Shown one piece after another: positions 37,175 through 63,525 of a DNA stretch of 64,000 bases. Position 1 is the first letter of the stretch; the number at the start of each line of letters is the position of its first letter. A model generated the notes under the pieces. That model searched no databases, was not told the origin of the DNA, and was given only the letters and a program-made list of their open reading frames with translations. The position numbers were made by a program, and so were the translations under genes. Source of the DNA: an uncultured Gemmatimonadales bacterium (GTDB lineage Bacteria; Gemmatimonadota; Gemmatimonadetes; Gemmatimonadales; GWC2-71-9); the NCBI GenBank assembly GCA_963739455.1, contig CAVUAK010000001.1, positions 128,001-192,000 on the forward strand, read 5' to 3'.

Positions 37175-37177
37175 TTG

Positions 37178-38625: not shown

Positions 38626-38636
38626 CTGGCCCTCCC

Positions 38637-39861: not shown

Positions 39862-39866
39862 CGCCT

Positions 39867-40418
39867 ATGCCTGACGTGGCCCGCTGGACCCGCGCTGAGG
39901 TGCTGGCGCTCCCCGATGACGGGATGCGACACGAGCTCATCGACGGCGAGTTGATCGTGACGCCAACTCCCCGGGTGCGACACCAGGAGGGCGTCATGGC
40001 CTTGCAAGAATTGTTGTCGGCCTATGCCCGCGAACACGGCGTTGGCCGATGTTACAACCTGCCTGGTGACCTTGAGGTGCTGCCGGGCCAGGTGAACCAG
40101 CCCGACCTCTTCGTCGTCCCACCCGGCCCGCGCTTCAGCCGCTGGGAAGACGCCCCCACCCCCATCCTCGTCATCGAGGTCGCCTCACCCTCCACCGCGC
40201 GATACGACCGCGGCACCAAGCGCCGGTTCTACCAGCGCGCTGGCGTGCCCGAATACTGGATCGTAGACCTCGACGCGCGCCTGGTGGAGCGCTGGCGCCC
40301 GGACGACCTTCGCCCCGAAGTGCTCGACCACGATATCGCTTGGCAGCCAGCTCCTGACGCCCCGGCGCTCCGCATCGATCTTGACCGCTTTTTCGGCGAG
40401 GTCATGGACGCAACCTAG
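39867..40418 (+). CDS. Uma2 family (PD-(D/E)XK fold) putative endonuclease, copy 1
   Basis: HELIDGELIVTPTP..RHQ, QPDL, LVIEVASPST..YDR..KR..Y..AGVPEYWIVD. Confidence 0.92.
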   Translation: MPDVARWTRAEVLALPDDGMRHELIDGELIVTPTPRVRHQEGVMALQELLSAYAREHGVGRCYNLPGDLEVLPGQVNQPDLFVVPPGPRFSRWEDAPTPILVIEVASPSTARYDRGTKRRFYQRAGVPEYWIVDLDARLVERWRPDDLRPEVLDHDIAWQPAPDAPALRIDLDRFFGEVMDAT

Positions 40419-40479
40419 GAAGGCACCGCCAGCCGCAATCCCCTAGCCGCCCGCTGCCGCACCGTGCAAGTTTCGCCCT

Positions 40480-43210
40480 GTGAATCCCACCCTGGACCGT
40501 CTCTCAGCCGCCCTCTCTGACCGCTACCGCCTCGAGCACGAGCTCGGCCAGGGCGGCATGGCCACCGTCTACCTCGCCGAGGACCTGAAGCACAGCCGCA
40601 AGGTCGCCATCAAGGTCCTGCACCCCGAGCTGAGTGCCTTGATTGGTGGCGACCGCTTCCTTACAGAAATCAAGACCACGGCCGGCCTGCAGCATCCCCA
40701 CATTCTCGGCCTCATCGATTCCGGCGCGGTTCCTCTCACGACTCACGCCTCACGCCTCACTGACGACAGTCGACTGTCGACTGATCTCTTGTATTACGTC
40801 ATGCCTTTTGTCTCGGGCGAGTCCCTCCGCAACCGGCTGACCCGCGACAAGCAGCTCCCCATCGACGACGCGCTCCGGCTCGCGAAAGAAGTCGCCAGCG
40901 CCCTCGACTACGCCCACCGCCAGGGCGTCGTCCACCGCGACATCAAGCCGGAGAACATTCTCCTGCAGGACGGCTCCGCCCTCGTAGCCGACTTCGGCAT
41001 CGCCCTCGCCGTGCAGCAGGCCGGCGGCAGCAGGATGACGCAGACCGGCATGTCACTCGGCACCCCCGCCTACATGTCGCCCGAACAGGCCATGGGCGAG
41101 CGCGACATCGGTGCCCGCAGCGATGTGTATGCCTTGGGTGCGATGACGTACGAGATGCTCACCGGCGAGCCTCCCTTCACCGGCCTCAACTCCCAGGCCA
41201 TCGTCGCGAAGGTGCTGACCGAGACTCCACCTCCGCTCCGCCCCAAGCGTCCGACGGTGAGCCCTGCAGTCGAGCACGCGATCCTCACCGCGCTGCAGAA
41301 GCTCCCCGCCGATCGCTATGGAAGCGCGAAGGACTTCGCCGAGGCCCTCGACGGCAAGGGTGGGAACTATGCAGCCACGGTAGTTACCTCACGTCCTCAC
41401 GTCCTCACGTCTTCACGTCAGCGCCTTCCCGTCCTTGCCGCCTTGGTGCTTACGGCCATCCTCGCGGCACTCGCGGGAAGGGCGTCCCGTGCGGAGCCCC
41501 AGCCTCCAGTCGCACGCTACACCACCCTCCTCCCCGCCGACCAGGCCCTCGCCGACACGCGCGGCCATCGCATCGCCATTTCTCCTGACGGGTCCCGCCT
41601 GGTCTACTCCGGGAGCGGGTCCGACGGGTCACAACTCTGGCTCCGGAACCGGAACCAGCTCCGCGCTACGCCGATTCCCGGCGCCAGTCACCCGACCGTG
41701 CCGTTCTTCTCGCCCGATGGCCAGCGCGTCGGGTACACCGTCGAGGGAAACACCGAGATCAAGGTCGTGAGCCTCACTGGTGCGCCGCCCATTACCGTCG
41801 CCGACTCCGGTATTGGCGCCGACGGTGCCACCTGGAGCGAGGACGGCTTCATCTACTTCGACGGGCTCACGGGCGGTGGCACCACCGGCCTCATGCGCGT
41901 GGCACCAAACGGTGCGAAGGTCCTGGAACAGGTCACCACCGTCGACACCGCGCGCCGCGAGCAGGATCACTTCTGGCCCAACGCCTTGCCGAAGGGGCGC
42001 GGGGTGCTCTTCACCATCCAGGAGCGCGGGAACAATGAGGAGCGGAGCCAACTGGCCGTCCTCGACACGAAGACCATGAAGGTGCACACCCTGGTCCAGG
42101 CGCTCACCGGTCGCTACGCACCAGGCGGATACCTCCTGTACGTCACGGCGGCAGGCGAACTGCTCGCGGTGAAGTTCGACCTCGACCGTCTCGCCGTGGT
42201 GGGGGAGCCGTTCGCCATTGCCAGCGGTATTGCGCGACGGTCCTTCGGCGCCATCGACCTCGCCATCTCGATGTCGGGGACCCTCGTGTACCAGGCCGGC
42301 GGGGCCGCGATGGAGCCGAGTCAGGTCGTCTACGTGAGCCGCGACGGCTCGGCCGTCCCGATCGACACGAGTTTCGTGGGTGACTTCCAGACCCTGGCGC
42401 TCTCCCCCGACGGCCGCCGGCTCGCCATCAGCAAGATCGACGGCACCGAGCAGCAGGTCTGGATCAAGCAGCCCCAATGGTCCGCTCAGCAAGCTCAGCT
42501 TCGAGGGAAATCGCAGCATCCGACCCACCTGGTCGCCCGATGGCCAGTACGTGGGATTCATCGGCAACCAGGGCGCCGGTCCCCAGTTCTATCGCAAGCG
42601 CGCCGACGGAATCGGCGCGACGGAACCGGTGCTCACCATGCCGGGCCGCGTCGTCAATGCGGCGACCTGGAGCCGCGACGGGAAGTGGCTCGCGTTCCTC
42701 ACCAACCCTGCCGACCTCTTTGCCCGCCGTACCAGTGGTGACACCTCCCTGGTTTCCCTCGCGAACTCCCGGTTCGAGGAGATCACCCCGTCGATCTCCC
42801 CCGATGGGCGCTGGCTGGCGTACTCGTCCAACGAGTCGGGCGAGTTCGAGATCTACGTGCGTCCCTTTCCCGACGCCGGATCAGCCCGGTGGCAGGTCTC
42901 GACCGGTGGTGGCTTCGAGCCGTTGTGGTCTCCCGACGGCCACGAGTTGCTCTACTGGAGCGGCGGCGAGAACACCACCGGCCAGCTCAACACAGTGGCC
43001 GTGCTCCCGGGGCCAACGTTCATCGCCGGCCAGCGCCACATCCTCCCCATCCAGGGCTCGCCCTACGTCGGCACGCCCGGCTCCTGGGACATCACCCGCG
43101 ACGGCAAGCGCTTTGTCATGATTCGCCAGGGCGCCGGCAAGGGTGATGACCGGGAACTCGTAGTGGTCGAGAACCTTTCCGCCGAACTCACCGCGGAGCA
43201 TGCGCGGTAA
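40480..43210 (+). CDS. Receptor Ser/Thr kinase + TM + TolB/PD40 beta-propeller (kinase 2); frameshift near 42470
   Basis: Full Hanks motifs, TM LPVLAALVLTAILAALA, SPDG repeats. Confidence 0.9.
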
Positions 43211-43213
43211 CCA

Positions 43214-43252
43214 GGTCATTGCGAGGCCTGCGTAGCAGGCCGCGGCAATCCC
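43214..43252. repeat. REP-like palindrome, copy 2
   Basis: ggtcattgcgaggcctgcgtagcaggccgcggcaatccc directly after the kinase 2 stop. Confidence 0.75.
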
Positions 43253-43361
43253 GTTGCATGGCACGGAGCCTTCCTGCGCATTTTCGATGACGTCGTCATT
43301 GCCGGTTCGGGCAACCTTGGGCAATGCCGACTTGCCCACCTTCACCCGCCGAGCGTACGCT

Positions 43362-43919
43362 ATGGCTATGCCTGACGTGGCCCGCTGGACCCGCGCTGAA
43401 GTACTGGCGCTTCCCGACGATGGGATGCGCCACGAGCTCATCGACGGCGAACTGATCGTGACCCCCACCCCACGCGTCAGGCACCAGGAAGGGGTCACAG
43501 CGCTGACGGCGCTCCTCCTGCCATACGTGCACGAGCATCGACTCGGCCGCTTCTTTGCCTTGCCAGCCGATCTCGAGGTGCTTCCCGACCAGCTCACCCA
43601 GCCCGACCTGTTCGTGGTGCCGCCCGGCCCACGGTTCGATCGCTGGGAGGACGCCCCAACACCCACCCTCGTCATCGAAGTCGCCTCGCCATCCACGGCC
43701 CGGTACGACCGCGGCACCAAGCGCCGGTTTTACCAGCGCGGTGGCGTGCCCGAGTACTGGATCGTCGACCTCGACGCCCGGCTTGTGGAACGCTGGCGCC
43801 CCAGCGACGCCAGGCCGGAAGTGCTCGACCACGACATCACCTGGCAGCCCAACCCGGACGTCCCACCGCTCCGCATCGACCTGGATCAATTCTTCGCGCA
43901 GGTCATGGACGCAAGGTAG
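43362..43919 (+). CDS. Uma2 family putative endonuclease, copy 2
   Basis: Same motifs; close paralogue of 39867-40418. Confidence 0.92.
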   Translation: MAMPDVARWTRAEVLALPDDGMRHELIDGELIVTPTPRVRHQEGVTALTALLLPYVHEHRLGRFFALPADLEVLPDQLTQPDLFVVPPGPRFDRWEDAPTPTLVIEVASPSTARYDRGTKRRFYQRGGVPEYWIVDLDARLVERWRPSDARPEVLDHDITWQPNPDVPPLRIDLDQFFAQVMDAR

Positions 43920-43942
43920 GAGATCTCCTGCCAACATAAATC

Positions 43943-43979
43943 TTGCCGCTGTGTTACAGGTGCGCTACATTGTAACACA
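43943..43979 (+). promoter_or_regulatory. Sigma70-type promoter with overlapping operator for the TA pair (probably leaderless)
   Basis: TTGCCG-17nt-TACATT ends 7 nt before the ATG; perfect 9-bp inverted repeat TGTGTTACA-n12-TGTAACACA (43950-43979). Confidence 0.7.
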
Positions 43980-44281
43980 TGAAAGACGAGCACCTCACCC
44001 TGCGCCTCCCCCGCGACCTCGCCCGGGCCCTGACCCGCTGGGCCCGTGAGCACGGCGTGCCGAAGTCGCAGGTAGTACGCGAGGCAGTGACGCGCTATTG
44101 TCTTCCCGCCACTCGCGAGCCGGCCACTCTGGAGACCGCATCCCCCACCGTCACCGCGGCAGCGTTCGCGGTACGGTGGGCAGCGCTGCCTCGGCTCACC
44201 CCGGATGAGACGACTGCCTTCGAGGCCGATATCGACGCGGCCCGGCGCGCGCTGCCCGGCGCGCCCGACACATGGGAGTGA
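43979..44281 (+). CDS. Ribbon-helix-helix (CopG-like) antitoxin
   Basis: LTLRLPRDLARALTRWAREHGVPKSQVVREAV; ends DTWE and overlaps the PIN gene. Confidence 0.85.
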   Translation: MKDEHLTLRLPRDLARALTRWAREHGVPKSQVVREAVTRYCLPATREPATLETASPTVTAAAFAVRWAALPRLTPDETTAFEADIDAARRALPGAPDTWE

Positions 44282-44688
44282 TGCTCGACACCACCGTGCT
44301 GATCGCCGCCGAGCGACGTGCGCTGCGCTTCGATGACCTGCTTGGCGCCATCTCGACTGAGCCGATCGCCCTGAGCGCCGTCACCGCGTCGGAGTTGCTC
44401 CACGGCTGCCATCGAGCCCGCGACCGCGGTACCCGCTCGCGTCGATTGGCGTTCGTTGAGGGATTGCTGGGCGCGCTCCCGATCCTGCCCTTTGGCCTGG
44501 TCGAGGCGCGCCGGCACTCCGAGCTCTGGGCAGATCTCGCCGGCAGTGGTACCCTCATCGGTGCACACGACATGCTGATCGGCGCCACGGCGCTTGCGCA
44601 TGGCTATGCCCTGGCCACCTTGAATCAGAAGGACTTCGCCCGCATCGACGGCTTGCAGCTCGTCCCCGTTGAGCGCTTCACCACATGA
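44278..44688 (+). CDS. vapC: PIN-domain VapC toxin
   Basis: LDTTVLI, SELLHG, DMLIGATA, TLNQKDF acidic tetrad. Confidence 0.9.
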   Translation: MMLDTTVLIAAERRALRFDDLLGAISTEPIALSAVTASELLHGCHRARDRGTRSRRLAFVEGLLGALPILPFGLVEARRHSELWADLAGSGTLIGAHDMLIGATALAHGYALATLNQKDFARIDGLQLVPVERFTT

Positions 44689-47457
44689 CCACCGCCGACC
44701 GTCTCACCGCAGCTCTCTCCGACCGCTATCGCCTCGAGCGCGAGCTGGGCCAGGGTGGCATGGCCACCGTCTATCTCGCCGAAGACCTGAAGCACGGTCG
44801 CAAGGTCGCCATCAAGGTCCTGCATCCGGAACTCTCCGCCGTCATCGGCGGCGATCGGTTTCTGGCCGAGATCAAGCTCACCGCAAGCCTTCAACACCCC
44901 CACATCCTCGGCCTGATCGACTCGGGAGCCGTTTCACTAACGCCTCACGCCTCACGACTCACTGACGACAGTCGACTGTCGACTGATCTTCTGTACTACG
45001 TCATGCCCTTCATCGAGGGGGAGACCCTGCGCGGTCGCCTCACCCGCGAGAAGCAGCTCCCCGTCGATGACTCCATCCGCCTCACGAAGGAAGTCGCCGC
45101 CGCCCTCGAGTTCGCCCACAAGCGCGGCATCATCCATCGCGACATCAAGCCCGAGAACATCCTGCTGCAGGACGGTCAGGCCCTCGTCGCCGACTTCGGC
45201 ATCGCCCTCGCCGTGCAGCAGGCCGGCGGCTCCCGCATGACGCAGACCGGCATGTCGCTCGGCACTCCCGCCTACATGTCGCCCGAACAGGCCATGGGCG
45301 AACGCGACATCGGCGCTCGGAGCGACGTGTACGCGCTGGGCGCCATGACCTATGAGATGCTCACCGGCGAGCCGCCCTTCACCGGCCCCAACTCCCAGGC
45401 CATCGTCGCGAAGGTGCTGACGGAAACTCCGCCACCGCTCCGCCCCAAGCGCCCCACCGTGCCACCCGCGGTCGAGCACGCCGTCCTCACGGCCTTGCAG
45501 AAACTCCCCGCCGATCGGTTGGCAGCCGGCGAAGGAGTACGCAGAGGCGCTCGAAGGGAGAGGCAGCAACTATGCATCGACGGTAGTTACTTCACGTCCT
45601 CACGTCCTCACGTCTTCACGTCTCCATCACGTCCTCACGTCCTCACGTCCAGGGCGCGCCCTCGCCTGGAGCGCCGTCGCCGCCCTGATCGCAGCCACCG
45701 CCATGTGGGGCTTCATGCGGCGCGGAACGACGGGGGCGCCCGTAAGGCGCTACGCCCTCGCCCTCCCCGCAAACCAGCCGATGGAATGGAGCCGCATCGG
45801 GACCAACATTGACCTGTCTCCCGATGGCTCACGCTTTGTCTACGTCGGGCCCGGCGAGCAGGGCGGCAGCCTCTGGCTCCGCGATCGTGATCGGCTTGAG
45901 GCGACACCGATTCTCGGCACCTCCAATGCCATCAATCCCCGTTTCTCGCCCGACGGACGACAGATCGTCTTTTCCTCCGGAAGCCTGCTCGAGCTGAAGC
46001 TGGTCGGCGTCGACGGTGGCTCCCCCGTCACGATCGCCCGGGGAGGGTCGGGCGCGAGCGGCGGTGTCGCCTGGAGCGATGATGGCTGGATCTACTTCGA
46101 CGCCGTTCCCGGCCTGAGCCGCGTGCGCCCCAACGGCGATAGCGCACAACTCGTGGTACCGATCGATGCCTCGCGCGGCGAGGCGGGGCAGGCGTGGCCC
46201 GAGGCCGTCCCGGGCGGACGCTGGCTGGTGTATCGCACCCGGAGCAGTAACGCACTCGAGGAGTTTGATATCGGCGTCAGCGACCTGAAGACCGGTGCGC
46301 GCCACGTTCTCACCAGGGGCATCTTCGCCCGACGCATCGGGGCGGGGCTCTTCATCATCGTGCGCGCCGACGGTGTGCTCACTCTCGCCCGCGTCGATGA
46401 GCGCACCATGACGCTGCGCGGATCGCCGGTGCCGGTGCTCGACGGCCTCAAGACCAAGCTGCTGGGCTCGGTCGACCTCACTGTCAGCGGTGGCACCCTG
46501 ATGTATGTGCGGGGCGGATCGAATTCCTACCGGGTGTCTGCCGTCTGGGTCACCCGCGAAGGTGCCGCGAAGCCGATCGAGCCCGCCGTGGTCGTGACAC
46601 CGCCGAACAATCGCGGGCTCGCCCTTTCGCCCGATGGTCGCCGCCTCGTCGTGGACATGGTGGGGCCCAAGTCCACCGACGTCTGGGTGAAGGAGCTGCC
46701 GGCAGGCCCATTCTCCCGGCTCACCTTCGATGGCCTTGCGAACTTTGCGCCTTTCTGGAGCAGCGACGGCAAGTACATCATGTACCTCCTCAACCCCGGG
46801 CAGGGTTCCAATATTGTGCAGGTGTGGCGCAGGAAGGCCGACGGCAGTGCGCCCGCCGAGTCGGTGTTCGCCACCTCCCGTTCGACTATCGAAGCGTCCA
46901 TGTCGAAAGACGGTGAGTGGCTCTTCTATCGGATCAACAACGATTCCACCGGCCCTGACGTCTACGGAATCCGCCTGGGGGGCGACACGACGCCCGTACC
47001 TCTCCTCACCGGTCCAGCCGCCGAGACGAACCCTTCGCTCTCTCCCGACGGTCACTGGCTGGCATATGTGTCGAACGAGTCCGGAACCCTCGAGGTCTAT
47101 GTCCGGCCCTTCCCCCACGTGAACGCGGGACGGTGGCAAGTGTCGATCGGCGGCGGCACCGCGCCCCGCTGGGCACACAGTGGCCGCGAGCTCTTCTTCG
47201 TCTCCGGCACCGAGATGATGATGGCCCCCATCACCACGTCGGGGGGCGCATTCTCTCCCGGCACGCCCCAGAGGCTCTTCACCGGGTTCGGCACCCAGTT
47301 TCTCCAGGGGTTCATCCCCTACTACGACCTGAGCCCCGATGACAGGAACTTCCTCATGATGGGTATTCCTGTCGGCGACAGTACGCGTTCGCAGCTCATC
47401 ACCGTCGAGAACTGGCTTCAGGACGTGAACGCGAAGCTCGCGGCGGCACAACAGTGA
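44685..47457 (+). CDS. Receptor Ser/Thr kinase + TM + beta-propeller (kinase 3); frameshift near 45525
   Basis: Hanks motifs; TM and SPDG repeats in the next frame; ATG overlaps the vapC stop. Confidence 0.9.
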
Positions 47458-50203
47458 CCAGCACCGAAGCCCGCCTCACCGCGTCTCTTGCCGATCGCTA
47501 CCGCGTCGAGCGCGAGCTCGGCCAGGGCGGCATGGCCACCGTCTACCTCGCGGAGGACCTCAAGCACAGCCGCAAGGTCGCGATCAAGGTCCTGCATCCC
47601 GAGTTGAGCGCCGTCATCGGCGGCGACCGCTTCCTCACCGAAATCAAGGTCACCGCCAACCTCCAGCACCCGCACATTCTCGGCCTGATCGACTCGGGAG
47701 CTGTTTCACTCACGCCTCACGCCTCACGCCTCACTGACGACAGTCGACTGTCGACTGATCTCTTGTATTACGTCATGCCGTACGTCGTCGGGTGAGTCCC
47801 TCCGCAACCGTCTCGCGCGCGACAAGCAGCTCCCCATCGACGACGCACTCCGGCTTGCGAAGGAAGTCGCCAGCGCGCTCGACTATGCCCATCGCCAGGG
47901 CGTCGTCCACCGCGACATTAAGCCCGAGAACATCCTGTTGCAGGACGGTTCGGCCCTCGTCGCCGACTTCGGCATCGCGCTGGCCGTCCAGCAGGCCGGC
48001 GGCTCTCGCATGACCCAGACCGGCATGTCGCTCGGCACGCCCGCCTACATGTCGCCCGAACAGGCCATGGGCGAACGAGACATCGGTGCGCGCAGCGATG
48101 TGTACGCGCTCGGCGCGATGACCTACGAGATGCTCACCGGGGAACCGCCGTTCACTGGCCTCAACTCCCAGGCCATCGTCGCGAAGGTGCTGACGGAATC
48201 TCCGCGCGCTATGCGCCCTGCGCGCCCTAGCGTCCCCCCGGCAGTGGAACATGCCGTGCTTACGGCGTTGCAAAAGCTCCCCGCCGATCGCTACGGCACA
48301 GCGAAGGGAGTTTGCGGAGGCGCTCGACGGTAAGGGCGGTAACTACGCATCCACCGAGGTTACTTCACGTCCTAACGTCCTCACGTCTTCACGTCTACCT
48401 CACGTCCTCACGTCCTCACGTCCAGGGCGCGCCCTTGCATGGAGCGCTATCGCGGCCGCGATTGCAGCCACGGCTATGTGGGCCTTCGTGTGGCAGGGAA
48501 GGACGGGCGCGCCCGTAAGCCGCCAACGCGTCGTCCTCTGGCAGCATCCCCGCGGCCAGTTCCTCTCGGCCGGCCAGAGCCTGATCGCATCACAGGCCGC
48601 AATCGCCCCGGACGGATCGAGCATCGTCTATACCGATTCCATCGATGGCGTCATCCACCTGATGCGCAAGCTTCGGAGCGAGCGCGAGCCCGTACCGATC
48701 GCTGGCACCGAGGGAGCGGTGTCGCCCTTCTTCTCGCCCGACGGGAAGTGGATCGGATACCTCACGACCGATGGAAGGCTCCGCAAGGTCAGTGTCGACG
48801 GGGGCGGCTCGATCACCCTCGCCGAAGACGCGCAGCGGACCCAGGTCTCGGCCGCATGGCTGGACAATGGGACCATCGTCTACGCCGGCGCGGTGGCGGA
48901 CATGAAGAGGGTCTCCGCCGACGGAGGTCCGAGTTCGCCCATACGGGCCGACAGTAGCCTGCGTCGTCACGCGCTGCTCACGCTCTCTCCCCTTCCGGGC
49001 AGTCGGGGATTCCTTCACACGAGTTGCCCCGGCAACTGCGCCATCGAGTCCGCCGTGTATGTCTTCGATTTCGCGGCCGATAGCTCGCGGTTGCTCGTGC
49101 CGAATGCCGCCGGCGCCTGGTACTCACCCACCGGCTACCTGCTCTACACCGACCGCGCGGGCGGCCTGTATGCTGCGGGGTTCGACCCGAACCGGCTTGT
49201 GATGACGACCCCGGCCGTACCTGTCCTCGAGGACATCGTGCCGACCACCCTGGCGCTGTCAGCATCGGGGAGTGCGCTCTACTCCATCACCGCCGGCAAG
49301 CAGAAGCCATCCGAGCTCATGTGGGTCTCGCGCGATGGCAGCGCAGAGCCGGTCGACTCGGGCTGGCGGGGCGAGTTCGATTACCCCGCCGTCTCCCCCG
49401 ACGGCAAGGCGCTCGCCGTGAGCGTCCGTGATGGCCCAACCCACATCTGGATCTGGCGCGCCGACGGCACCCGGCAGAAGCTGACCCAGGAAGGGACCGT
49501 CAACTGGCGTCCGTCCTGGTCACCGGATGGAAAGTCCATCGCATTTATTTCCAACAAGCGCGGTGGCGGAAACCAGGACGCCTATGACGCCTACCGCATG
49601 CCCGTCGACGGCAGTGCGCCGCCCGACCTGCTCCAGCGGCACACCTTCGGCCTCTGGGAAATCGAGCTCTCGCGCGACGGTCAGTGGCTCATCGTCCGCG
49701 CTGACGAGGCGGTCGGCAGCTCCAACATTCGTGGCCGGCGCCTGGTGGGCGACACGACGCTGCTTCCACTCGTGGTGGACCCGAGCGTCAGCATGCAGGC
49801 GGCCCTGTCACCCGACGAGCATTGGCTCGCATACTCCGCCAACCCGACCGGCCTGATGGAGATCTACGTCGCCCCCTTCCCCTCGATGAAGTCCACCCGG
49901 CTCGTCTCCACCGGCGGCGGCACCGAGCCGCGCTGGGCCCACAGCGGCAAGGAACTGTTCTTCAAGAGCGGTGGCAAGCTGATGGCCGTCGACGTGTTGC
50001 CGGGCGAGGCCTTCACCTTCGGCACGCCCCACGCCCTGTTCCCGCTCACCGGCTATCTCGCAGCCAGGAACCGGCCCGAGTACGACGTGGCGCCCGATGA
50101 TCGCCGCTTCCTGATGATCCGGGTGCCGAAGGAATCGAACGAGGAAGTGGTGTACGTCGAGAACTGGTTTACGGAACTCAGGGCGAAGATGGAGAAGAAG
50201 TAG
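47454..50203 (+). CDS. Receptor Ser/Thr kinase + TM + beta-propeller (kinase 4); frameshifts near 47790 and 48305
   Basis: Three frames join into the same architecture as kinases 2 and 3. Confidence 0.88.
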
Positions 50204-55494: not shown

Positions 55495-58247
55495 CTAGCA
55501 CAGAAGCCCGCCTTTCATCCGCCCTGAGCGACCGATACCGCCTCGAGCGCGAGCTCGGCCAGGGCGGCATGGCCACCGTCTACCTGGCGGAAGACCTCAA
55601 GCACGGCCGCAAGGTCGCGATCAAGGTCCTCCATCCGGAGTTGAGCGCTGTTATCGGTGGCGATCGGTTCCTCGCCGAGATCAAGGTCACCGCCAGCCTG
55701 CAGCACCCCCACATCCTCGGCCTCATCGACTCCGGGGCAGTTCCTCTGAACCCTGAACTCTCAACCCCTAACCCTTCTGACGACTCACGACTGCCGACTG
55801 CCGGCTTGCTCTACTACGTCATGCCCTTTGTCGCGGGCGAATCCCTCCGCGCCCGCCTGACTCGCGAGAAGCAGCTCCCCGTTGACGATGCGATCCGTCT
55901 CGCGAAGGAAGTCGCCAACGCGCTCGACTACGCCCACCGCCACGGCGTCGTCCACCGCGACATCAAGCCGGAGAACATCCTGCTCCAGGAAGGCGCCGCC
56001 CTGGTCGCCGACTTCGGCATCGCGTTGGCGGTCCAGCAGGCCGGTGGCAGCCGCATGACCCAGACCGGCATGTCACTCGGTACGCCGGCGTACATGTCGC
56101 CCGAACAGGCAATGGGCGAACGCGAGATCGGCCCCCGCAGCGATGTGTATGCCCTGGGCGCCATGACGTACGAGATGCTCGCCGGCGAGCCCCCCTTCAT
56201 GGGCCCCAACTCCCAGGCCATCGTCGCGAAGGTGCTGACGGAGCAGCCACCGCTGTTGCGCCCCAAGCGTCCGCTGGTTTCTTCCGCCGTCGAAAACGCG
56301 ATCCTGACTGCCTTGCAGAAGTTGCCGGCCGATCGCTACGGCTCGGCGAAGGACTTCGCCGACGCCCTCGACGGAAAGGGCGGCACTTACGCCGCCACGG
56401 TGGCACTCGGTTCCACCCGCCCTACCCGCCCTACCCGCCTTACCCGCCCCGTCATGCTGGCCGCGCTCGCCCTGATCGCCACCGCCGCGGGCGTCGCCGG
56501 CTGGTTCATGCGAGGAGGCCCGCGCGCCTCGCCCGTAAGCCGCTTTTTTCTCTCCTTCCCCCCCGGCCAGGCTCCACGGGGCGAGATGCTCATCACCCAG
56601 GACGGATCGCGCCTCGTCTACGCCGGACCCGGCGACAGTGGCGTGCAGCTCTGGGTGAAGGAGCGCGCCAACAGCATCGCCACGCCGCTCGCCGGCACCA
56701 ACGGCGCGCAGGGACTCGGCCTCTCGCCCGATGGCAGCAAGGTCGCGTTCGTGCAGCACGAGCAGCTCATGTCGATACCGCTGGCAGGGGGACAGGTGTT
56801 CAAGGTCGCCGACAGCGCCTTCGCCACCGGCGCGGCCTGGCTCGACGACGGTACCATCGTGTACACCTCGCTCTCGTTCAACCTGATGCGCGTGAAGGAC
56901 ACGGGAGAGCGGCCGACGGTACTCTGGCACTCGAAGAATTCCAACAAGGCATCGGTGCTTCCGAGGCCGCTGCCGCAGGCGCGCGGCGTCATCTTCACCG
57001 ATTGCAGCTTCAACTGTGATCCCCAAGCCGACCTCTGGGTGTACGACGCGACGTCGGGTGCGACACGACTCCTGGTGCCGGGCGCGATAGGCGGATGGTA
57101 TCTCTCCTCGGGCCACCTCGCCTACGTGAAGCTGGATGGCGAACTGGTTGCTGCTCCCTTCGACGTGGCCAAGTTGGAGTTCAGGGGACCTCCCGTTCAA
57201 CTCATGGACGGGATCGGGCTCCAATTCGTGGTGCCGGTGCTGTCGTTCTCCGACGCTGGCACACTGGTGGCGCAAGTCGGGGCCGCGCGCCGCACCGATA
57301 TCCGGGGCCAGTACGAAATGGTGTGGATCGACCGCGCTGGAACACAGGAACCGGTCGACACCAGCTGGAAGTTCAAGCTCAGCATCTCCAACCTCAACCA
57401 AGGCTGGGCGCTTTCTCCCGACGGCACCCAGCTCGCCATCGGCCTCAATACCAAGTCAGGCGATGACATCTGGATCAAGCGATTGCCGACGGGCCCGCTC
57501 TCGCGCCTCACCTTTGACTCATTGCCCGAACAACGCCCCCACTGGACACCCGATGGCAGGTCCGTCACCTACATCGTCGATGGAACCGGCGGCCTGAAGG
57601 AACGCCGAGCCGATGGGACCGGCAGTGAGAAGGCACTCGTGTCGCCTCGCGTGGAGCAGGTGAACGATGCCGCCTGGTCACACGACGGCAAGTGGCTCGT
57701 GGCCCGGATCGGCGGCCTGAGTGGACTGCGCGGACCTCGCAACATCTACGCATGGCGGCCCGGCGTGGACAGTGGCCCCCTCCCGCTGCTCGCCAATCCG
57801 GCGTACGACGAAGCCGCCATGTCGCTCTCGCCCGATGACCGCTGGATCGCATACGAGTCCGACGAAACCGGGAAGAACGAGGTCTACATTCGACCTTTCC
57901 CCAACGTTGACGACGGCAAGTGGCAGGTCTCGAGCAACGGCGGACAGGCACCCCTCTGGGCGCATGGCGGGAAGGAATTGTTCTACGTCGACGGGAACCG
58001 GAGCATGGTCGCCGTCCCCGTGACCGGGGGCGCCTCCATCACGCTCGGGAGCGCCAAGACGCTCTTTCCGCTCCCGGGGAACATCCTCCTCGCTCCCGAT
58101 GAGCATTACACCCCGTTCGACGTCTCGCCCGACGACCGGCGCTTTATCATGGTGCGCGAGGTCGGTGGAAAGTCCCGCGACGACGTGGCGGTGCTGCTGG
58201 TCGAAAACTGGTTTGCTGATGTGAAGTCGAAGCTCGGTGCGAAATGA
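55491..58247 (+). CDS. Receptor Ser/Thr kinase + TM + beta-propeller (kinase 7)
   Basis: Intact 918-aa ORF with Hanks motifs, TM and SPDG repeats. Confidence 0.93.
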   Translation: MTSTEARLSSALSDRYRLERELGQGGMATVYLAEDLKHGRKVAIKVLHPELSAVIGGDRFLAEIKVTASLQHPHILGLIDSGAVPLNPELSTPNPSDDSRLPTAGLLYYVMPFVAGESLRARLTREKQLPVDDAIRLAKEVANALDYAHRHGVVHRDIKPENILLQEGAALVADFGIALAVQQAGGSRMTQTGMSLGTPAYMSPEQAMGEREIGPRSDVYALGAMTYEMLAGEPPFMGPNSQAIVAKVLTEQPPLLRPKRPLVSSAVENAILTALQKLPADRYGSAKDFADALDGKGGTYAATVALGSTRPTRPTRLTRPVMLAALALIATAAGVAGWFMRGGPRASPVSRFFLSFPPGQAPRGEMLITQDGSRLVYAGPGDSGVQLWVKERANSIATPLAGTNGAQGLGLSPDGSKVAFVQHEQLMSIPLAGGQVFKVADSAFATGAAWLDDGTIVYTSLSFNLMRVKDTGERPTVLWHSKNSNKASVLPRPLPQARGVIFTDCSFNCDPQADLWVYDATSGATRLLVPGAIGGWYLSSGHLAYVKLDGELVAAPFDVAKLEFRGPPVQLMDGIGLQFVVPVLSFSDAGTLVAQVGAARRTDIRGQYEMVWIDRAGTQEPVDTSWKFKLSISNLNQGWALSPDGTQLAIGLNTKSGDDIWIKRLPTGPLSRLTFDSLPEQRPHWTPDGRSVTYIVDGTGGLKERRADGTGSEKALVSPRVEQVNDAAWSHDGKWLVARIGGLSGLRGPRNIYAWRPGVDSGPLPLLANPAYDEAAMSLSPDDRWIAYESDETGKNEVYIRPFPNVDDGKWQVSSNGGQAPLWAHGGKELFYVDGNRSMVAVPVTGGASITLGSAKTLFPLPGNILLAPDEHYTPFDVSPDDRRFIMVREVGGKSRDDVAVLLVENWFADVKSKLGAK

Positions 58248-60913
58248 CCCCCGACCGCCTCGCCAAAGCCCTCGCTGACCGCTATCGTATCATTCGCGAG
58301 CTCGGCCAGGGCGGCATGGCCACCGTCTATCTCGCCGAGGACCTCAAGCACCACCGCCAGGTCGCCATCAAGGTTCTCCGTCCCGAACTCGCCGCTGCAC
58401 TCGGCGCTGATCGCTTCCTCCGCGAAATCGAGACGACGGCCAACCTTCGCCACCCCCACATCCTCCCGTTGTTTGACAGTGGCGCGCTGCCGACTGACGC
58501 ACGACTGCCGACTGCCGACTCACGACTCCTGTTCTACGTCATGCCCTTCGTCGATGGCGAAAGCCTCCGCTCCCGCCTCGACCGCGAAAAGCAGCTCCCC
58601 ATCGATGACGCACTCCAGATCGCTCGCGAAGTCGCCGATGCCCTGAGCTACGCCCACGCTCACGGCGTCATTCATCGCGACATCAAGCCGGAGAACATCC
58701 TCCTCGAGAGCGGGCACGCCGTCGTCGCCGACTTCGGCATCGCCAGGGCCATCAACGCTGCTTCTGGTGACAAGCTGACCGAGACCGGCATGGCCATCGG
58801 CACCGTGACGTACATGAGTCCCGAACAGGCCGCCGGTCAGCAGGACCTCGACGGCCGGAGTGATCTCTACGCCCTCGGTTGCGTGCTTTACGAAATGCTC
58901 GCGGGACAGGCCCCGTTCACCGGGCCCACCGTCGAGAGCATCGTGCACCAGCACCTGGTCGCGAACGCGCCGCCGATCACGCAGCTGCGCCCCGCCGTGC
59001 CGGCCGACGTCGCTGCGGCCCTGCAGCGTGCGCTTGCCAAGACCCCCGCCGATCGTTTCAACCCGGTGGCGCAGTTTGCCAGCGCCCTGCAGCCGCGCAC
59101 CATCGCGGCGACCGCACCGATCACGACGAGTGCTCCCCGCAATCGCGCGCTGCTGATCGGTGCATCGCTCACGGCGCTGGCAGCCCTGGGCTTCCTCGTT
59201 CTTCGCGCGCGGAACGCAGCAGCCAATGCGCTCCCGGTCATCGGCAAGACCATTCAGGTGACGCGCGCCCCCGGGCTCGAGGTTGACCCCGCCCTGTCGC
59301 CCGATGGCGAGAACATCGCCTATGCCGCCGGTCCCCCCACTGCCATGCAGGTCTACGTTCGCCAGGTCACTGGTGGTCGTGAGGTGGCACTCACCAGTGA
59401 CACGACCGGGAATTTCCGCTCGCCTCGCTGGTCGCCCGACGGATCCCAGATCGCGTATCAGTCCAATGACGGCATTTATCTCGTGCCGGCGCTCGGCGGG
59501 GTTCCACGCCGGGTGGCCCGCGCCGACAAGTCCATGCTTTTCCACGGCCAGGAATCAGTGACGCCACTGTCCGGGCTCGACTGGTCGCCCGATGGGTCAC
59601 GGTTGGCCTGGACCGCTGGCTACAACAGCGACGTAGTCACGGTGCTGACGCTCGCGAGCGGCGGGACGGTGACACTCCCCGCGCCCGCCGCAGCCTTCTC
59701 ACCGGCGTGGTCCCCTGATGGTCGCAGCATCGCCGTTTCGTCTGGTGACCCTGCATTCGTCTTCGGTACCGGCTATTTCGGGAACGTCGCCACGTCCTCT
59801 CTCTGGATGGTGCATCTCGACGGAACAGCGCCGACACCGGTAACGGCTGACAGTTCCCTGAATGTGGGGCCCCAGTGGTCACCCGACGGGCGCGCGCTGT
59901 TCTGGGTCTCGGATCGCGAGGGCAGCCGCGACATCTATCGCCAGCGCATCGGTGCGAATGGCGCCGCGCAGGGCACGCCCCAGCGCCTCACCACCGGAAC
60001 CGACGCGCACGGGATCAGTCTGAGCCGGAAGGGCGGACGCATGGCGTATTCCAGGCTCACGACCTACTCCAGCATCTGGTCCATTCCCGTGCCGGCCCGG
60101 GGCCCAGTCTCCATTCGGGGCGCGACGCGCATCACGACCGGGAACGAGACCATCGAGGACGTGGACGTCTCCCCTGATGGCCGCTGGCTGGCTTTTGACT
60201 CCGACCGGGGCGGAAACCCCGACCTGTACATCATGCCCGCGGCTGGTGGCGACGCACGCCAGATCACCACCGATCCAGCCGGCGACTTCAGCCCCACGTG
60301 GTCACCTGACGGACGCAGGATCCTTTTTCACTCACTCCGCAATGGCAGCCGCGACATCTACACCGTAGACACCGACGGCACGGGGCTCACCCGCTGGACC
60401 TCGTCCCCGGACGAGGAACTCGATTCCGGATGGTTCCCGGATGGCGAGACGATCCTGTTCACCGTGTTCGAACCTGGAAGGGCGGGATTCGGCATCCTGC
60501 ACCTGGTGCCCGATGCGAAGGTCAGCTTCCTGCCAGTGACTCAGGGCGACTACGGCATCTCCACGCCTGACGGCAGGGGCATCGTGTATCACGGCGCTGA
60601 CGGGTTGCATCTGTTGAAGGTGGCTGGCGGGGCCGATGCCCTCCTCGTCTCCAACGCCACCGAAAATGCCGAAGTGGTCTACGCAGACTGGTCACCAGAT
60701 GGGTCGACGCTCTACTTCCTGGCCCGGGCTCGGCAGGGCTGGTCGATCAGGTCCATGCCGGCGGCGGGTGGCGCGAGTACCGTACTGGTAGACTTCGACG
60801 ACCCCGCCCGCCAGCATACCAAGTACGGCTTCACCACCGATGGGAAGATCTTCTACTTCACGGTCGGCACACCCGAGAGCGACATCTGGGTCGCCAACCT
60901 GACGAAGCCTTGA
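58244..60913 (+). CDS. Receptor Ser/Thr kinase + TM + PD40 repeats (kinase 8)
   Basis: Intact 889-aa ORF with many PxWSPDG repeats. Confidence 0.93.
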   Translation: MTPDRLAKALADRYRIIRELGQGGMATVYLAEDLKHHRQVAIKVLRPELAAALGADRFLREIETTANLRHPHILPLFDSGALPTDARLPTADSRLLFYVMPFVDGESLRSRLDREKQLPIDDALQIAREVADALSYAHAHGVIHRDIKPENILLESGHAVVADFGIARAINAASGDKLTETGMAIGTVTYMSPEQAAGQQDLDGRSDLYALGCVLYEMLAGQAPFTGPTVESIVHQHLVANAPPITQLRPAVPADVAAALQRALAKTPADRFNPVAQFASALQPRTIAATAPITTSAPRNRALLIGASLTALAALGFLVLRARNAAANALPVIGKTIQVTRAPGLEVDPALSPDGENIAYAAGPPTAMQVYVRQVTGGREVALTSDTTGNFRSPRWSPDGSQIAYQSNDGIYLVPALGGVPRRVARADKSMLFHGQESVTPLSGLDWSPDGSRLAWTAGYNSDVVTVLTLASGGTVTLPAPAAAFSPAWSPDGRSIAVSSGDPAFVFGTGYFGNVATSSLWMVHLDGTAPTPVTADSSLNVGPQWSPDGRALFWVSDREGSRDIYRQRIGANGAAQGTPQRLTTGTDAHGISLSRKGGRMAYSRLTTYSSIWSIPVPARGPVSIRGATRITTGNETIEDVDVSPDGRWLAFDSDRGGNPDLYIMPAAGGDARQITTDPAGDFSPTWSPDGRRILFHSLRNGSRDIYTVDTDGTGLTRWTSSPDEELDSGWFPDGETILFTVFEPGRAGFGILHLVPDAKVSFLPVTQGDYGISTPDGRGIVYHGADGLHLLKVAGGADALLVSNATENAEVVYADWSPDGSTLYFLARARQGWSIRSMPAAGGASTVLVDFDDPARQHTKYGFTTDGKIFYFTVGTPESDIWVANLTKP

Positions 60914-63525
60914 GCAATATCGAAGCGCGCCTCGCCGCATCCCTGTCCGACCGCTACCGCATCGAGCGCGAACTCGGTGCCGGCGGCATGGCCACGGTCT
61001 ACCTCGCCGAGGATCTCAAGCACGGCCGCAAGGTCGCGATCAAGGTGCTCCGCCCTGAACTCTCCGCCGTGATCGGCAGTGAGCGCTTCCTCTCCGAGAT
61101 CAAGACCACGGCCGGCCTCCAGCACCCCCACATTCTGGGACTCATCGATTCCGGGTCAGTTCCTCTGAACTCTGGACCCTCAACTCCTAACCCTTCTGAC
61201 GACTCACGACTGCCGACTGCCGACTTGCTCTACTACGTCATGCCCTTCATCGAGGGCGAGACCCTTCGGGCTCGCCTCGAGCGCGAGAAGCAACTCCCAA
61301 TCGACGACGCCATTCGCCTCACCCGGGAAGTCGCCTCCGCCCTCGAGTTCGCCCACAAGCGCGGCATCGTCCATCGCGACATCAAGCCCGAGAACATCCT
61401 CCTGCAGGACGGCCAGGCCCTCGTCGCCGACTTCGGCATCGCACTCGCCACCAGTCAAGCCGGCTCTCGCATGACCCAGACCGGCATGTCGATCGGCACG
61501 CCCGCCTACATGTCGCCCGAACAGGCCATGGGCGATCGCGACATCGGTCCCCGCAGCGATGTCTACGCACTCGGTGCCCTGGCATACGAGATGCTGACTG
61601 GTGAACCGCCCTTCACCGGCCTCAACTCCCAGTCCATCGTCGCCAAGGTGCTGACAGAGCAACCACCGCAGTTGCGCCTGCGGCGTCCGATGGTTTCCCC
61701 CGCCGTTGAAGCCGCGGTGCTTACCGCTCTTCAAAAGCTCCCCGCCGATCGCTTCGCCAGCGCGAAGGATTTCGCCGACGCCCTTTCAAGTCCTCACGTC
61801 CTCACGCCCTCACGTCATCCTGAGCGCAGCGAAGGACCTCCCCGCCCTCCCCGCCATCCCCGCCTCGGACTCATCGCGGCCATCGCACTCATCTCCACCG
61901 CCGCGGGGTTCGCAGGTTGGTTCATGCTCAGAAGCACGCGCGCAGCGCCCGCCGCGCAAAGCGACCCCCACTCCCGCACCATCGCCGTCCTCCCCTTTCG
62001 CAACATCTCCCAGGACACCGCGCAGCAGTACTTCAGCGCCGGCATGACCGAGGAGATCGCCTCGCAACTCTCGCGCGTCGGTGCACTGCATGTGCTCGGC
62101 AGCTCTGCCACCGCGCAGTATGAGGGAAAGCCCGATCGCCTGCAGCGCATGGGCAGCGAACTGGGTGTTGGAAGCGTCGTGGAAGGGAGCGTGCGCCTGG
62201 CCGGTGACCAGGTGCGCATCGGGGTGGAGCTGACGGACGTGAAGACCGGCCAAAGGCTCTGGTCGGAACAGTATGATCGCAAGATCGACGATGTCTTCGC
62301 CGTGCAGGGCGACGTCGCACGAAACGTCTCGTCCGCCCTTCAGGCCACGCTCACCCCCATGGAAATGGGCCGCGTTGGTCATGTCGCCACCAGCAACACG
62401 GAGGCATACCAGCTCTATCTCCGCGCCCTCTCCGAGAAGCCGTTCCTGCGCGCCGGCAACGTCGCCCAGGCGGCGTTGCTGCGGCAGGCGATCCAGCTTG
62501 ATACCACCTTCGCCTCGGCGTGGGCCATGCTGGCCCGCAACAGGATGTTTCGCGGAGTCGCCGGCGAGCCTTCGTACATCGATTCGGGGTTCGTCGCGGC
62601 ACGAAAGGCCATCGCGCTCGATCCCGATGAGGCCCTCGGATACTTCGCCCTGGGAGATCTCCTGTCCAGCCGGCAGCAGCTCTCCGAGGCGCGTCGCTCG
62701 TACCTCAAGGCACTGGAACTGAATCCTGGCCACTTCGGCGCCATGGCCGATCTCGCCAATGTCTACTGGGCACTGGGTCGTTTCGACGAGGCACTCGACT
62801 GGGCCCTTCGCTCCCAGCAGCTCGACCCCAACCACCCGCACGGGCCGTATCACACCGGGCTGCCGTTGCTGGGCCTGGGCGATGACTCGGCCACGGCCCG
62901 GTATCTCCTCGCCGCGGAGCAGAAGTTCCCGGATCAACCACGGATTCAGGGCCTGCTGGTCTGGTTGGATATGCGACGCGGGCGGAATGCCCCTGCCACC
63001 GAGCGCGCGAAGCAACTCGTGCTGAACGAGCCCGACAACACCGAGGTTCCGCCCATCCGGGCCGAGCTGGCGGTGTTCACCAATGATCCCGACGCGGAAG
63101 GACTCATCGATCCCCTCGCCCGGAAGGACCCCGAGGCCGCCGGCCAGATGTTTCCCGAGTCCCTGCGATCGATGTACGCTCTCACCTTGAAGCGCCAGGG
63201 CAAGCAAGGTGAAGCGTCTGCGCTGTGGGAAGAATCCTCGAAGGCTGCACAGCGGAGGGTCGCCGATGGCCAGGAAGGCTCCAACGCGCCGATGGAGCTC
63301 GCGGCCATCAGCGCCATCGAGGGCCGCACCACCGAAGCACTCGACTGGCTGGAAAAGGGCTACCGCGCCGGCTGGAGGGACGCCGTGCTCCTCGAAATGG
63401 ATCCCTTCTTCGCATCGGTGCGACAGGAACCGCGCTACAAGGCCGTCGTTGCCTCGATCCAGCAGGACTTGAAGGAGATGCACGCTCGCGCCGCGGCGGC
63501 CCATCCCGATATTTTCACTCCATGA
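60910..63525 (+). CDS. Ser/Thr kinase + TM + TolB_N-like + TPR (kinase 9)
   Basis: Intact 871-aa ORF; IAVLPFRNIS..QYFSAGMTEEI; TPR repeats. Confidence 0.93.
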   Translation: MSNIEARLAASLSDRYRIERELGAGGMATVYLAEDLKHGRKVAIKVLRPELSAVIGSERFLSEIKTTAGLQHPHILGLIDSGSVPLNSGPSTPNPSDDSRLPTADLLYYVMPFIEGETLRARLEREKQLPIDDAIRLTREVASALEFAHKRGIVHRDIKPENILLQDGQALVADFGIALATSQAGSRMTQTGMSIGTPAYMSPEQAMGDRDIGPRSDVYALGALAYEMLTGEPPFTGLNSQSIVAKVLTEQPPQLRLRRPMVSPAVEAAVLTALQKLPADRFASAKDFADALSSPHVLTPSRHPERSEGPPRPPRHPRLGLIAAIALISTAAGFAGWFMLRSTRAAPAAQSDPHSRTIAVLPFRNISQDTAQQYFSAGMTEEIASQLSRVGALHVLGSSATAQYEGKPDRLQRMGSELGVGSVVEGSVRLAGDQVRIGVELTDVKTGQRLWSEQYDRKIDDVFAVQGDVARNVSSALQATLTPMEMGRVGHVATSNTEAYQLYLRALSEKPFLRAGNVAQAALLRQAIQLDTTFASAWAMLARNRMFRGVAGEPSYIDSGFVAARKAIALDPDEALGYFALGDLLSSRQQLSEARRSYLKALELNPGHFGAMADLANVYWALGRFDEALDWALRSQQLDPNHPHGPYHTGLPLLGLGDDSATARYLLAAEQKFPDQPRIQGLLVWLDMRRGRNAPATERAKQLVLNEPDNTEVPPIRAELAVFTNDPDAEGLIDPLARKDPEAAGQMFPESLRSMYALTLKRQGKQGEASALWEESSKAAQRRVADGQEGSNAPMELAAISAIEGRTTEALDWLEKGYRAGWRDAVLLEMDPFFASVRQEPRYKAVVASIQQDLKEMHARAAAAHPDIFTP

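What the first reader, a model, noticed from the sequence alone, without database searches (positions are those of the whole stretch)
39867..63525. Tandem array of eight Hanks-type kinases with conserved heads and swappable sensor tails
Seen: eight co-oriented kinase genes in about 23 kb, plus a ninth at 7071. Kinases 2, 3, 4, 7 and 9 have very similar catalytic domains, with long identical DNA stretches. The C-termini diverge strongly: five beta-propellers (four of one subtype, one PD40-rich) and three TolB_N+TPR tails. Seven of the eight have a TM segment, and all keep VAIK/HRD/DFG. Two Uma2 genes and a TA pair are interleaved. Known: kinase+TolB/TPR proteins are common in Gemmatimonadota and Acidobacteriota but functionally uncharacterised. 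Inference: a variable receptor repertoire feeding a shared phospho-output, comparable to plant receptor-like kinase clusters, possibly for threat or ligand surveillance.
Basis: partly seen in the sequence, partly recalled or inferred. Interest (0 to 1): 0.85.

Follow-up and report, generated by a model that had tools for sequence, protein, structure and literature searches.

The report
Reshuffling array of bacterial receptor kinases
Eight signalling-kinase genes sit head to tail in a Gemmatimonadales bacterium; related genomes carry different sets and orders of the same old sensor parts, and the shared kinase-coding DNA likely serves as the recombination handle that swaps, adds and removes sensors, which are predicted to sense signals outside the cell membrane.

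Summary
The array is real: eight co-oriented Hanks kinases (40480-63525), seven with one TM helix. The tails are five propeller types and three TolB_N+TPR. K1-K3 are frameshifted at the genome's background rate (0.31 vs 0.32 per kb), so these are likely assembly errors. 'Long identical DNA stretches' is overstated: the longest is 64 nt and synonymous sites are saturated. Each tail has orthologues in 2-5 congeners and is under purifying selection, so tails are an old library, not hypervariable. Heads are decoupled from tails for K1, K2, K3 and K6 (AU p ≤ 2e-4), and K8 carries the same head type on an unrelated tail. K4, K5 and K7 keep their own heads. The syntenic locus holds 8, 11, 8+, 3 or 0 array kinases in five genomes. 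Two haplotypes in one relative differ by five genes, with the junction inside a kinase head. Models match TolB and PknD propellers and the CadC sensor domain. Ligands, substrates and any defence role are untested. This scan found such arrays in other Gemmatimonadota before. Verdict: a new variant of a known kind.

The parts
39867..40418 (+). Uma2-family putative nuclease, copy a
   Evidence: PF05685 E 1e-30; start and stop checked
40480..43210 (+). K1: kinase, TM, double beta-propeller (type A); one frameshift near 42472
43368..43919 (+). Uma2-family putative nuclease, copy b
   Evidence: PF05685 E 4e-34; 78% DNA identity to copy a
43950..43979 (+). 9-bp inverted repeat ending at the antitoxin ATG; likely autoregulated TA operator/promoter, which would also read into K2-K8
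   Evidence: sequence; same element in G006 and G008; the sigma-70 consensus scan found no promoter; function inferred
43979..44281 (+). RHH antitoxin
   Evidence: PF01402
44272..44688 (+). VapC-type PIN toxin; its stop overlaps the K2 start by 4 nt
   Evidence: PF01850 E 7e-16; NF047863 below cut-off
44685..47457 (+). K2: kinase, TM, type A double propeller; frameshift near 45516
47454..50203 (+). K3: kinase, TM, type A double propeller; frameshifts near 47790 and 48307
50204..52474 (+). K4: divergent kinase, no TM, TolB_N-like+TPR tail (likely cytoplasmic)
52471..55494 (+). K5: kinase, TM, long TolB_N-like+TPR tail
55491..58247 (+). K6: kinase, TM, type A tail, modelled as two six-bladed propellers (residues after 56523)
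   Evidence: model pLDDT 93.4; TolB Z 24.0, PknD sensor Z 20.9
58244..60913 (+). K7: kinase, TM, PD40-rich propeller tail (type B)
   Evidence: PF07676 E 1e-52
60910..63525 (+). K8: array-type kinase head, TM, TolB_N+TPR tail with CadC-sensor-like fold
   Evidence: model pLDDT 93.5; CadC periplasmic domain TMt 0.68, rmsd 4.4-4.8; head position
63522..64000 (+). DinB-family gene coupled to the K8 stop; marks the downstream flank of the locus in relatives (runs past the window end)
   Evidence: PF12867
7071..9750 (+). K0: lone type A kinase, four frameshifts; start approximate
40726..40788 (+). in-frame heptamer-repeat insert in the K1 N-lobe loop; matching inserts start at 44928, 47700, 52714, 55737, 58484 and 61156; absent from K4

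Best explanation
This is a receptor Ser/Thr kinase repertoire locus whose sensor tails are rearranged between genomes, likely by homologous recombination inside the shared kinase-coding DNA, and whose proteins are predicted to signal by ligand-driven dimerisation of the tail. Step 1 (shown): the tails are old, separately conserved lineages. Step 2 (shown in relatives, inferred for this genome): crossovers in or just behind the kinase head delete, insert or reorder whole genes and put a tail on another head. The 4-nt stop/start overlap travels inside the exchanged piece, so the operon stays coupled. Step 3 (inferred from fold and topology): the propeller and CadC-like tails face the periplasm, bind a ligand and pair up, and the kinase heads activate each other as in PknB/PknD. 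Step 4 (inferred): K1, K2, K3, K6 and K8 have near-identical activation segments and likely share substrates, while K4, K5 and K7 are separate channels. My best guess for the ligand class is peptides, amino compounds or envelope fragments (about 0.35), and for substrates the membrane SARP/BTAD regulators or STAS/FHA proteins of this genome (about 0.25).
For: Tail groups: each of K1-K8 has tail orthologues in 2-5 other genomes, 52-92% identical; type A paralogues share about 28%. Incongruence: heads of the K1, K2, K3 and K6 tail groups are rejected as clades (p-AU 2e-4, 4e-50, 1e-29, 2e-5; 29-row subset). K8 heads nest inside the type A head clade (SH-aLRT 96). In database homologues, K8 relatives with 60-69% tail identity have 64% head identity (n=55 of 82), but K6, with an unrelated tail, has 82%. 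Recent events: two neighbours in G003 have 0 mismatches over 800 bp of head and 28% tail identity. G003 alleles of K3 differ 2-8% in the first 400 bp and under 1% after; G009 alleles of K1 differ 7-19% per 100 bp for 1.3 kb, then 0-3%. G003 C3 and C10 share 98-99% flanks and differ by five kinases. The syntenic locus varies in content. Overlap of 4 nt at 36 of 65 tandem junctions scored. Folds. An invariant Cys pair in the 112-row K6 tail alignment fits a periplasmic disulfide. Kinase-type tails are also fused to wHTH-BTAD heads in this genome (30-42% identity, 6 of 8 proteins with a BLAST hit) and to cyclase domains elsewhere, all outputs that work as dimers (recalled; for CadC, PMC5430869 passages).
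Against: No recent full-length head conversion is visible within this genome's array: four-fold sites are saturated. The same-genome excess in synonymous identity is small (0.625 vs 0.592; 0 of 2000 permutations; none in non-core heads). K4, K5, K7 and K0 are congruent with their tails. The two G003 contigs could be co-binned strains or an assembly bubble; G009 C1/C6 are only 79-92% alike over most of their length. Some gene order is conserved (K1..K2-K3..K4..K8 in G009). Ligand, dimerisation, topology and substrates were not measured. Peptide or amino-acid genes are 13 of 68 interleaved genes scanned, with no background comparison.
Confidence: 0.6

Rival explanations
1. An ordinary old paralogue cluster. 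Each kinase serves its own pathway, heads look alike through purifying selection and occasional neutral conversion, and gains and losses are a by-product of repeated DNA with no shared output.
For: Synonymous sites among window heads are saturated. Three of eight genes keep private heads. Tails are under purifying selection. Lineage-specific STK expansion by duplication or recombination is reported as common (PMC11032199 passages). Non-kinase genes around the locus are also rearranged between congeners.
Against: Heads on unrelated tails are as close as orthologous heads (85% vs 89% protein; tails 28% vs 74%). Junctions fall in or just behind heads. Chimeras are kept intact in fragmented assemblies (2 of 50 kinases flagged broken). 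An unrelated TPR tail acquired the array head.
Confidence: 0.22
2. An immune-like surveillance locus. The tails detect phage, predator or competitor proteins and the kinases trigger a defence or dormancy response, helped by the TA and Uma2 genes.
For: Presence/absence variation between strains. TA or Uma2 genes are 21 of 68 interleaved genes scanned. 3 of 4 PIN toxins detected in G000 touch a kinase gene. Uma2 hits candidate defence model PDC-S03. K3-tail pieces occur at 98-100% identity in five other runs, while in X2 neighbouring genes are about 88% (low depth, runs chosen with this stretch).
Against: Whole-tail dN/dS is well below 1. The K8 tail is 60-69% identical in 55 of 82 database homologues. 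No PIN toxin was found in the G001, G003 or G009 arrays. PADLOC and NCBIfam defence hits cover the kinase domain only, and the NCBIfam ones are below cut-off. Flanks are metabolic and transport genes. Most Uma2 and PIN genes of G006 and G008 lie outside the fetched arrays.
Confidence: 0.15
3. A mis-assembly of dispersed paralogues, or a decaying pseudogene cluster.
For: The assembly is error-rich and 3 of 8 genes are frameshifted. Raw reads of this sample were not found.
Against: Heads share no identical run above 64 nt, too short to confuse long reads. Frameshift density is the same in kinases and other genes (24 in 77.5 kb vs 34 in 105 kb). K2-K3 adjacency recurs in G009. A contig from another run spans the K6/K7 junction at 89% identity (X2 record 16). 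Tandem arrays occur in fragmented assemblies too.
Confidence: 0.03

Closest known systems
Mycobacterium tuberculosis PknD (receptor STK with a six-bladed propeller sensor)
   Same: Kinase, TM, propeller order; the K6 model matches the PknD sensor (1rwi, Z 20.9, rmsd 3.0, 235 aligned); activation of bacterial STKs by dimerisation (PMC6213207 passages).
   Different: Two propellers of TolB/PD40 type, 12% identity to PknD; dozens of paralogues in variable arrays rather than a single gene.
E. coli CadC (ToxR-like one-component receptor)
   Same: The K8 tail model matches the CadC periplasmic domain (3ly7-3lya, TMt 0.67-0.68, 315-318 columns); CadC signals by dimerising through this domain (PMC5430869 passages).
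   Different: The output is a kinase, not a winged helix; identity is 15%; the tail is about 200 residues longer; K4 has no TM; ligand unknown.
Expanded membrane STKs with WD40/TPR domains in Planctomycetota and myxobacteria
   Same: Cytoplasmic kinase with predicted periplasmic propeller or TPR; lineage expansion by duplication or recombination; some tandem copies (PMC11032199 passages).
   Different: The passages seen describe species-specific kinase clades. They do not describe a locus with a shared tail library reshuffled between strains, and the main text has no 'Gemmatimonad' match.
Plant tandem RLK clusters (Arabidopsis OAK locus)
   Same: Variable tandem array with gene conversion, duplication and deletion; conserved kinase (PMC3136440 passages).
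   Different: Reverse topology (kinase N-terminal), operon-like coupling, unrelated origin. OAK shows positively selected ectodomain sites; site-level selection was not tested here.
Sedentary chromosomal integrons
   Same: Variable ordered arrays with promoter-bearing TA cassettes (PMC13108822 abstract).
   Different: No tyrosine recombinase within 300 kb of the array, no room for attC at overlapping junctions; the units are kinase genes and recombination looks homologous.

Membership tests
Hanks-type Ser/Thr kinase | PF00069 above cut-off with VAIK, HRD, DFG and APE-type motifs | tested here: met
   (K3 in two pieces, each above cut-off)
Hanks-type Ser/Thr kinase | autophosphorylation and substrate phosphorylation | not testable with these tools
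   needs assay
PknD-like propeller receptor kinase | kinase, single TM, six-bladed propeller | tested here: met
   hydropathy; model and VIA match for K6; K1-K3 by homology
PknD-like propeller receptor kinase | a single propeller homologous in sequence to PknD | tested here: not met
   two propellers; sequence hits are TolB, none to PknD; 12% identity
PknB/PrkC PASTA kinases | PASTA repeats; NF033483 above cut-off | tested here: not met
   263-305 bits vs cut-off 450 in 6 of 6 kinases scanned, kinase part only; no PASTA hit
CadC/ToxR-like receptors | CadC-type periplasmic sensor fold | tested here: met
   K8 model, TMt 0.68; K4 and K5 not modelled
CadC/ToxR-like receptors | N-terminal OmpR-type winged helix output | tested here: not met
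   kinase instead; wHTH-BTAD versions exist elsewhere in the genome
CadC/ToxR-like receptors | signal-dependent dimerisation of the sensor | not testable with these tools
   needs assay
Integron cassette array | adjacent IntI tyrosine recombinase | tested here: not met
   5 PF00589 matches in G000, nearest at C1:493 kb; genome is 84% complete
Integron cassette array | attC sites between cassettes | tested here: not met
   K2-K8 junctions overlap by 4 nt or abut; no attC model was run
Plant RLK cluster (analogy) | copy-number change and gene conversion among tandem copies | tested here: met
Plant RLK cluster (analogy) | positively selected ectodomain sites | tested here: inconclusive
   whole-tail dN/dS 0.06-0.42; site models not run
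Anti-phage kinase systems (PD-T4-6, MADS, BREX PglW) | full-length match and partner genes | tested here: not met
   kinase-domain-only matches, NCBIfam scores below cut-off; none of the 5 non-kinase genes scanned matched a partner
STK-associated ECF sigma systems | ECF gene next to the kinase | tested here: not met
   none inside the array; a separate ECF-kinase pair lies on the other strand about 1.2 kb past K8

The most novel reading that the evidence does not exclude
An integrase-free cassette system for signalling. The kinase-coding DNA is both the output module and the recombination site, so a population-wide library of at least 38 propeller sensors is dealt out, reordered and passed between strains, plugged into one phospho-output, with TA cassettes acting as internal stress promoters and guards against deletion.
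Probability: 0.25. Interest if true: 0.8.

Novelty: new variant of a known kind. Interest (0 to 1): 0.5.

Why it matters
Gemmatimonadota are common soil bacteria with almost no known signalling biology (recalled). The type A tail was found in 61 of 121 genomes sampled from the phylum. If the reading holds, a bacterium varies what it senses by recombining whole sensor modules onto a standard kinase, a parallel to plant receptor clusters that needs no dedicated recombinase. It also gives a testable panel: 38 type A tail groups among 174 kinases, a CadC-like fold that suits existing dimerisation reporters, and strain pairs that differ by defined genes.

Tried and rejected
Raw reads: no run holds half of the stretch and no RNA holder is listed, so assembly and expression stayed untested. 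Complex prediction of a K8-tail homodimer gave no answer (score 0.00), which is not evidence either way. An AU test on the 95-row tree did not finish; it was run on 29 rows (tail groups K1, K2, K3, K6, K8, A8; LG+G4). The sigma-70 scan found 0 promoters in 39500-48000; the 7 terminator-like hits are near chance and include the repeat loops. Recent full-length conversion inside this window: rejected. Array-specific pseudogenisation: rejected. Global positive selection on tails: rejected. A hypervariable propeller: not seen; both propellers vary alike (within groups 0.66/0.66, between 0.29/0.32), and faces could not be mapped without coordinates. TA pairs as an obligatory array part: rejected. 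Transfer of the Uma2-TA piece between G000 and G006: not shown (3-34 mismatches per 100). Sequence search of the PDB missed the CadC link; only the fold search found it. Foldseek's top rows for K6 (LRP6) are poor superpositions (TM 0.3, rmsd about 20). Literature: no paper describing Gemmatimonadota kinase arrays came up; the library lacks most subscription papers, and bioRxiv supplements of the bSTK atlas were not seen. Scripts 67, 87 and 90 ended in errors; only the printed part of 67 is used.
Full report
SETTING. The window is G000:C1:128001-192000, a 3.6 Mb, 4-contig, 84% complete genome. The best relatives of the K6 head in named genomes are almost all Gemmatimonadota, led by Gemmatimonadales, so I place it there by inference.

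OBSERVATION. Eight co-oriented kinases lie between 40480 and 63525, and a ninth (K0) near 7071. All keep the catalytic motifs; seven of the eight have one hydrophobic segment after the kinase. K2 to K8 and the following dinB overlap by 4 nt at each junction, except K3/K4 which abut, and vapC overlaps K2 in the same way. Two of the four breaks are an extra G in a G run. Frameshift density is 0.31 per kb in 41 kinase stretches and 0.32 per kb in 83 other genes. In relatives with many contigs (short-read type, inferred from contig count) 2 of 50 kinases are flagged broken, against 16 of 27 in G000 and 48 of 89 in five long-contig congeners; G021 (4 contigs, 1 of 8) is an exception. I read the breaks as assembly errors. 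The claim of long identical DNA is weak: the longest run among the eight is 64 nt in the repeat-derived loop, and four-fold sites are 50-67% identical.

THE FAMILY. G000 has 60-61 kinase loci; 27 lie in C1:90-306 kb, including 12 of 13 type A propeller kinases. The K6 head matches in 31 of 31 genomes searched, with 29-59 matches per congener. The type A tail was found in 61 of 121 phylum genomes, with 11 candidates scored per genome. Tail-like clusters without a kinase in the ESM Atlas are mostly Acidobacteriota for the propeller and mixed for the TPR tail.

TAILS ARE AN OLD LIBRARY. I fetched about 0.8 Mb of kinase-rich regions from 13 relatives, chosen from the best hits and not whole genomes. 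With G000's region they gave 174 kinases in 79 tail groups at 55% identity, 38 of type A. Every window tail has orthologues in 2-5 other genomes. Orthologous tails are 52-92% identical, somewhat below ordinary orthologues (medians 74-88% in congeners); paralogous type A tails average 28%. Whole-tail dN/dS is 0.06-0.42 in all 18 allele or orthologue pairs; three paralogue pairs were saturated. This is presence/absence variation of stable sensors, not visible arms-race divergence. Site-level selection was not tested.

HEADS ARE EXCHANGED. Among 46 array-type heads, those on different tails are 85% identical and those on orthologous tails 89%. In a 95-row head tree, groups K0, K4, K5, K7, C4 and T10 are each one clade, while K1, K2, K3 and K6 need 3, 4, 6 and 6 changes; K8 heads sit inside the type A clade. 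AU tests on a 29-row subset reject monophyly for all four groups tested (p 2e-4 to 4e-50). Recent cases exist in relatives: 800 bp of identical head on tails that are 28% identical in G003, and heads with dS 0.07-0.10 on saturated tails in G021 and G007. In G000 itself there is no recent full-length conversion. The repeat-derived loop insert is a marker of shorter exchange: it is in 7 of 8 array kinases with heads as far apart as 55%, in none of the kinases outside C1:90-306 kb where the loop could be parsed (one 13-residue stretch with a break aside), and orthologues elsewhere have a 5-residue turn or another repeat. Earlier notes of this scan cover that loop.

THE LOCUS IS VARIABLE. Between the homologues of G000 C1:148k/160k and dinB or the RND genes (191k-201k), G009 has 11 kinases, G001 at least 8 (contig ends), G003 C10 three after the 160k gene, and G006 none of the array kinases, only two unrelated lone ones; its K3, K5, K8, K6 set lies elsewhere. 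No two arrays agree in content and order. G003 holds a second contig, C3, with 98-99% identical flanks and five more kinases between A7 and K3. The two K3 alleles differ only in the first 400 bp, which places the junction in the N-lobe; G009's two K1 alleles switch from about 10% to about 1.5% divergence at 1.3 kb, just behind the TM. These contigs may be co-binned strains; I could not see reads. In public runs, K3-tail pieces are 98-100% identical in X1-X5, while in X2 the K4, K5 and vapC pieces are about 88%. This hints at single tails moving between populations, but depth is low and the runs were found with this stretch.

PASSENGERS. I scanned 68 of the 82 interleaved ORFs listed: 21 are Uma2 or TA genes and 13 are peptidases, amino-acid or peptide transporters or amino-acid enzymes; no background rate was computed. 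The Uma2-RHH-PIN piece follows K1 here and A8 in G006; in G008 the RHH-PIN part follows A8 directly. The 9-bp inverted repeat at the antitoxin start is kept in all three. Since vapC is coupled to K2, that promoter would also drive K2-K8 (inferred). No PIN toxin was found in the arrays of G001, G003 and G009, and no integrase lies near the array.

STRUCTURE AND MECHANISM. The K6 tail models as two six-bladed propellers (pLDDT 93.4). The second is TolB-like (Z 23-25). The first is closed by the conserved C-terminal strand and matches the PknD sensor (Z 20.9) among many propellers of similar score. The K8 tail (pLDDT 93.5) matches the CadC periplasmic domain over its whole length (TMt 0.68, rmsd 4.4-4.8), the lowest rmsd among the listed hits. 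CadC and mycobacterial receptor kinases are activated by dimerisation (PMC5430869 and PMC6213207, passages). Kinase-type tails sit on wHTH-BTAD regulators with a TM in this genome and on cyclases elsewhere, so the tails behave as portable input modules. I therefore infer ligand binding, pairing, trans-autophosphorylation and a shared output for the five array-type heads. K4 lacks a TM and has a weak HilA-family hit, so it is likely a cytoplasmic version. EmbR, an OmpR-like regulator, is a substrate of several mycobacterial STKs; that it is a SARP-type protein is recalled, and this is the only basis for naming the BTAD proteins as candidate substrates.

COMPARISON AND VERDICT. The proteins are Hanks kinases that work like PknD- and CadC-type receptors, without being members of either family. 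The locus behaves like a plant RLK cluster (PMC3136440 passages) and resembles an integron array in its TA passengers (PMC13108822 abstract), but fails the integron tests. Expanded kinase-TM-propeller/TPR repertoires are described for Planctomycetota (PMC11032199 passages). The bSTK atlas text does not mention Gemmatimonadota or propellers (10.1101/2025.01.12.632604, term search), and the Solibacter paper found no positive selection in its STK paralogues (PMC3174227 passages). My searches found no paper on these arrays. This scan has noted similar arrays in at least five other genomes. Novelty: new variant of a known kind. Interest 0.5.

Noticed in passing
window 40726-61227 and genome-wide: Resident 7- and 8-mer repeat families (366 tracts counted) sit in frame in proteins: 44 tracts in 152 kb of kinase genes and 26 inside other called genes, including a long polymerase-like ORF at C1:1074 kb. 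Distant homologues fill the same kinase loop with other repeats, some REP-like.
   Followed up: partly
window 61813-61836 and 52999-53050: A REP-like element in the K8 juxtamembrane linker (3 copies in the genome) and a palindrome-rich 16-codon insert in the K5 activation loop.
   Followed up: no
L013:715-2951 (just past the window end): ECF sigma factor (PF07638) coupled to its own kinase on the minus strand, a typical STK-ECF pair and a possible cross-talk target.
   Followed up: no
L142-L148: Eight wHTH(-BTAD) regulators, seven with a clear TM, carrying kinase-type sensor tails; one lacks most of the BTAD domain.
   Followed up: partly
L016:8787-9683 and L048:6276-7556: A PP2C phosphatase between kinases at C1:303 kb, and a STAS-domain protein next to the T10 kinases in G006, with a homologue at C1:291 kb in G000.
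   Followed up: no
window 34692-39861: Sulfatase and radical-SAM maturase genes upstream of the array, both in pieces like many genes here.
   Followed up: no
L044:11963-17273, L136:4689-6059: Amino-acid permease and POT peptide transporter genes inside kinase arrays of G021 and G011.
   Followed up: no
L017:451-1647: A long ORF of about 1.2 kb with a Walker-A-like motif sits between array genes in G003 C3 and is absent from the C10 form; not annotated.
   Followed up: no
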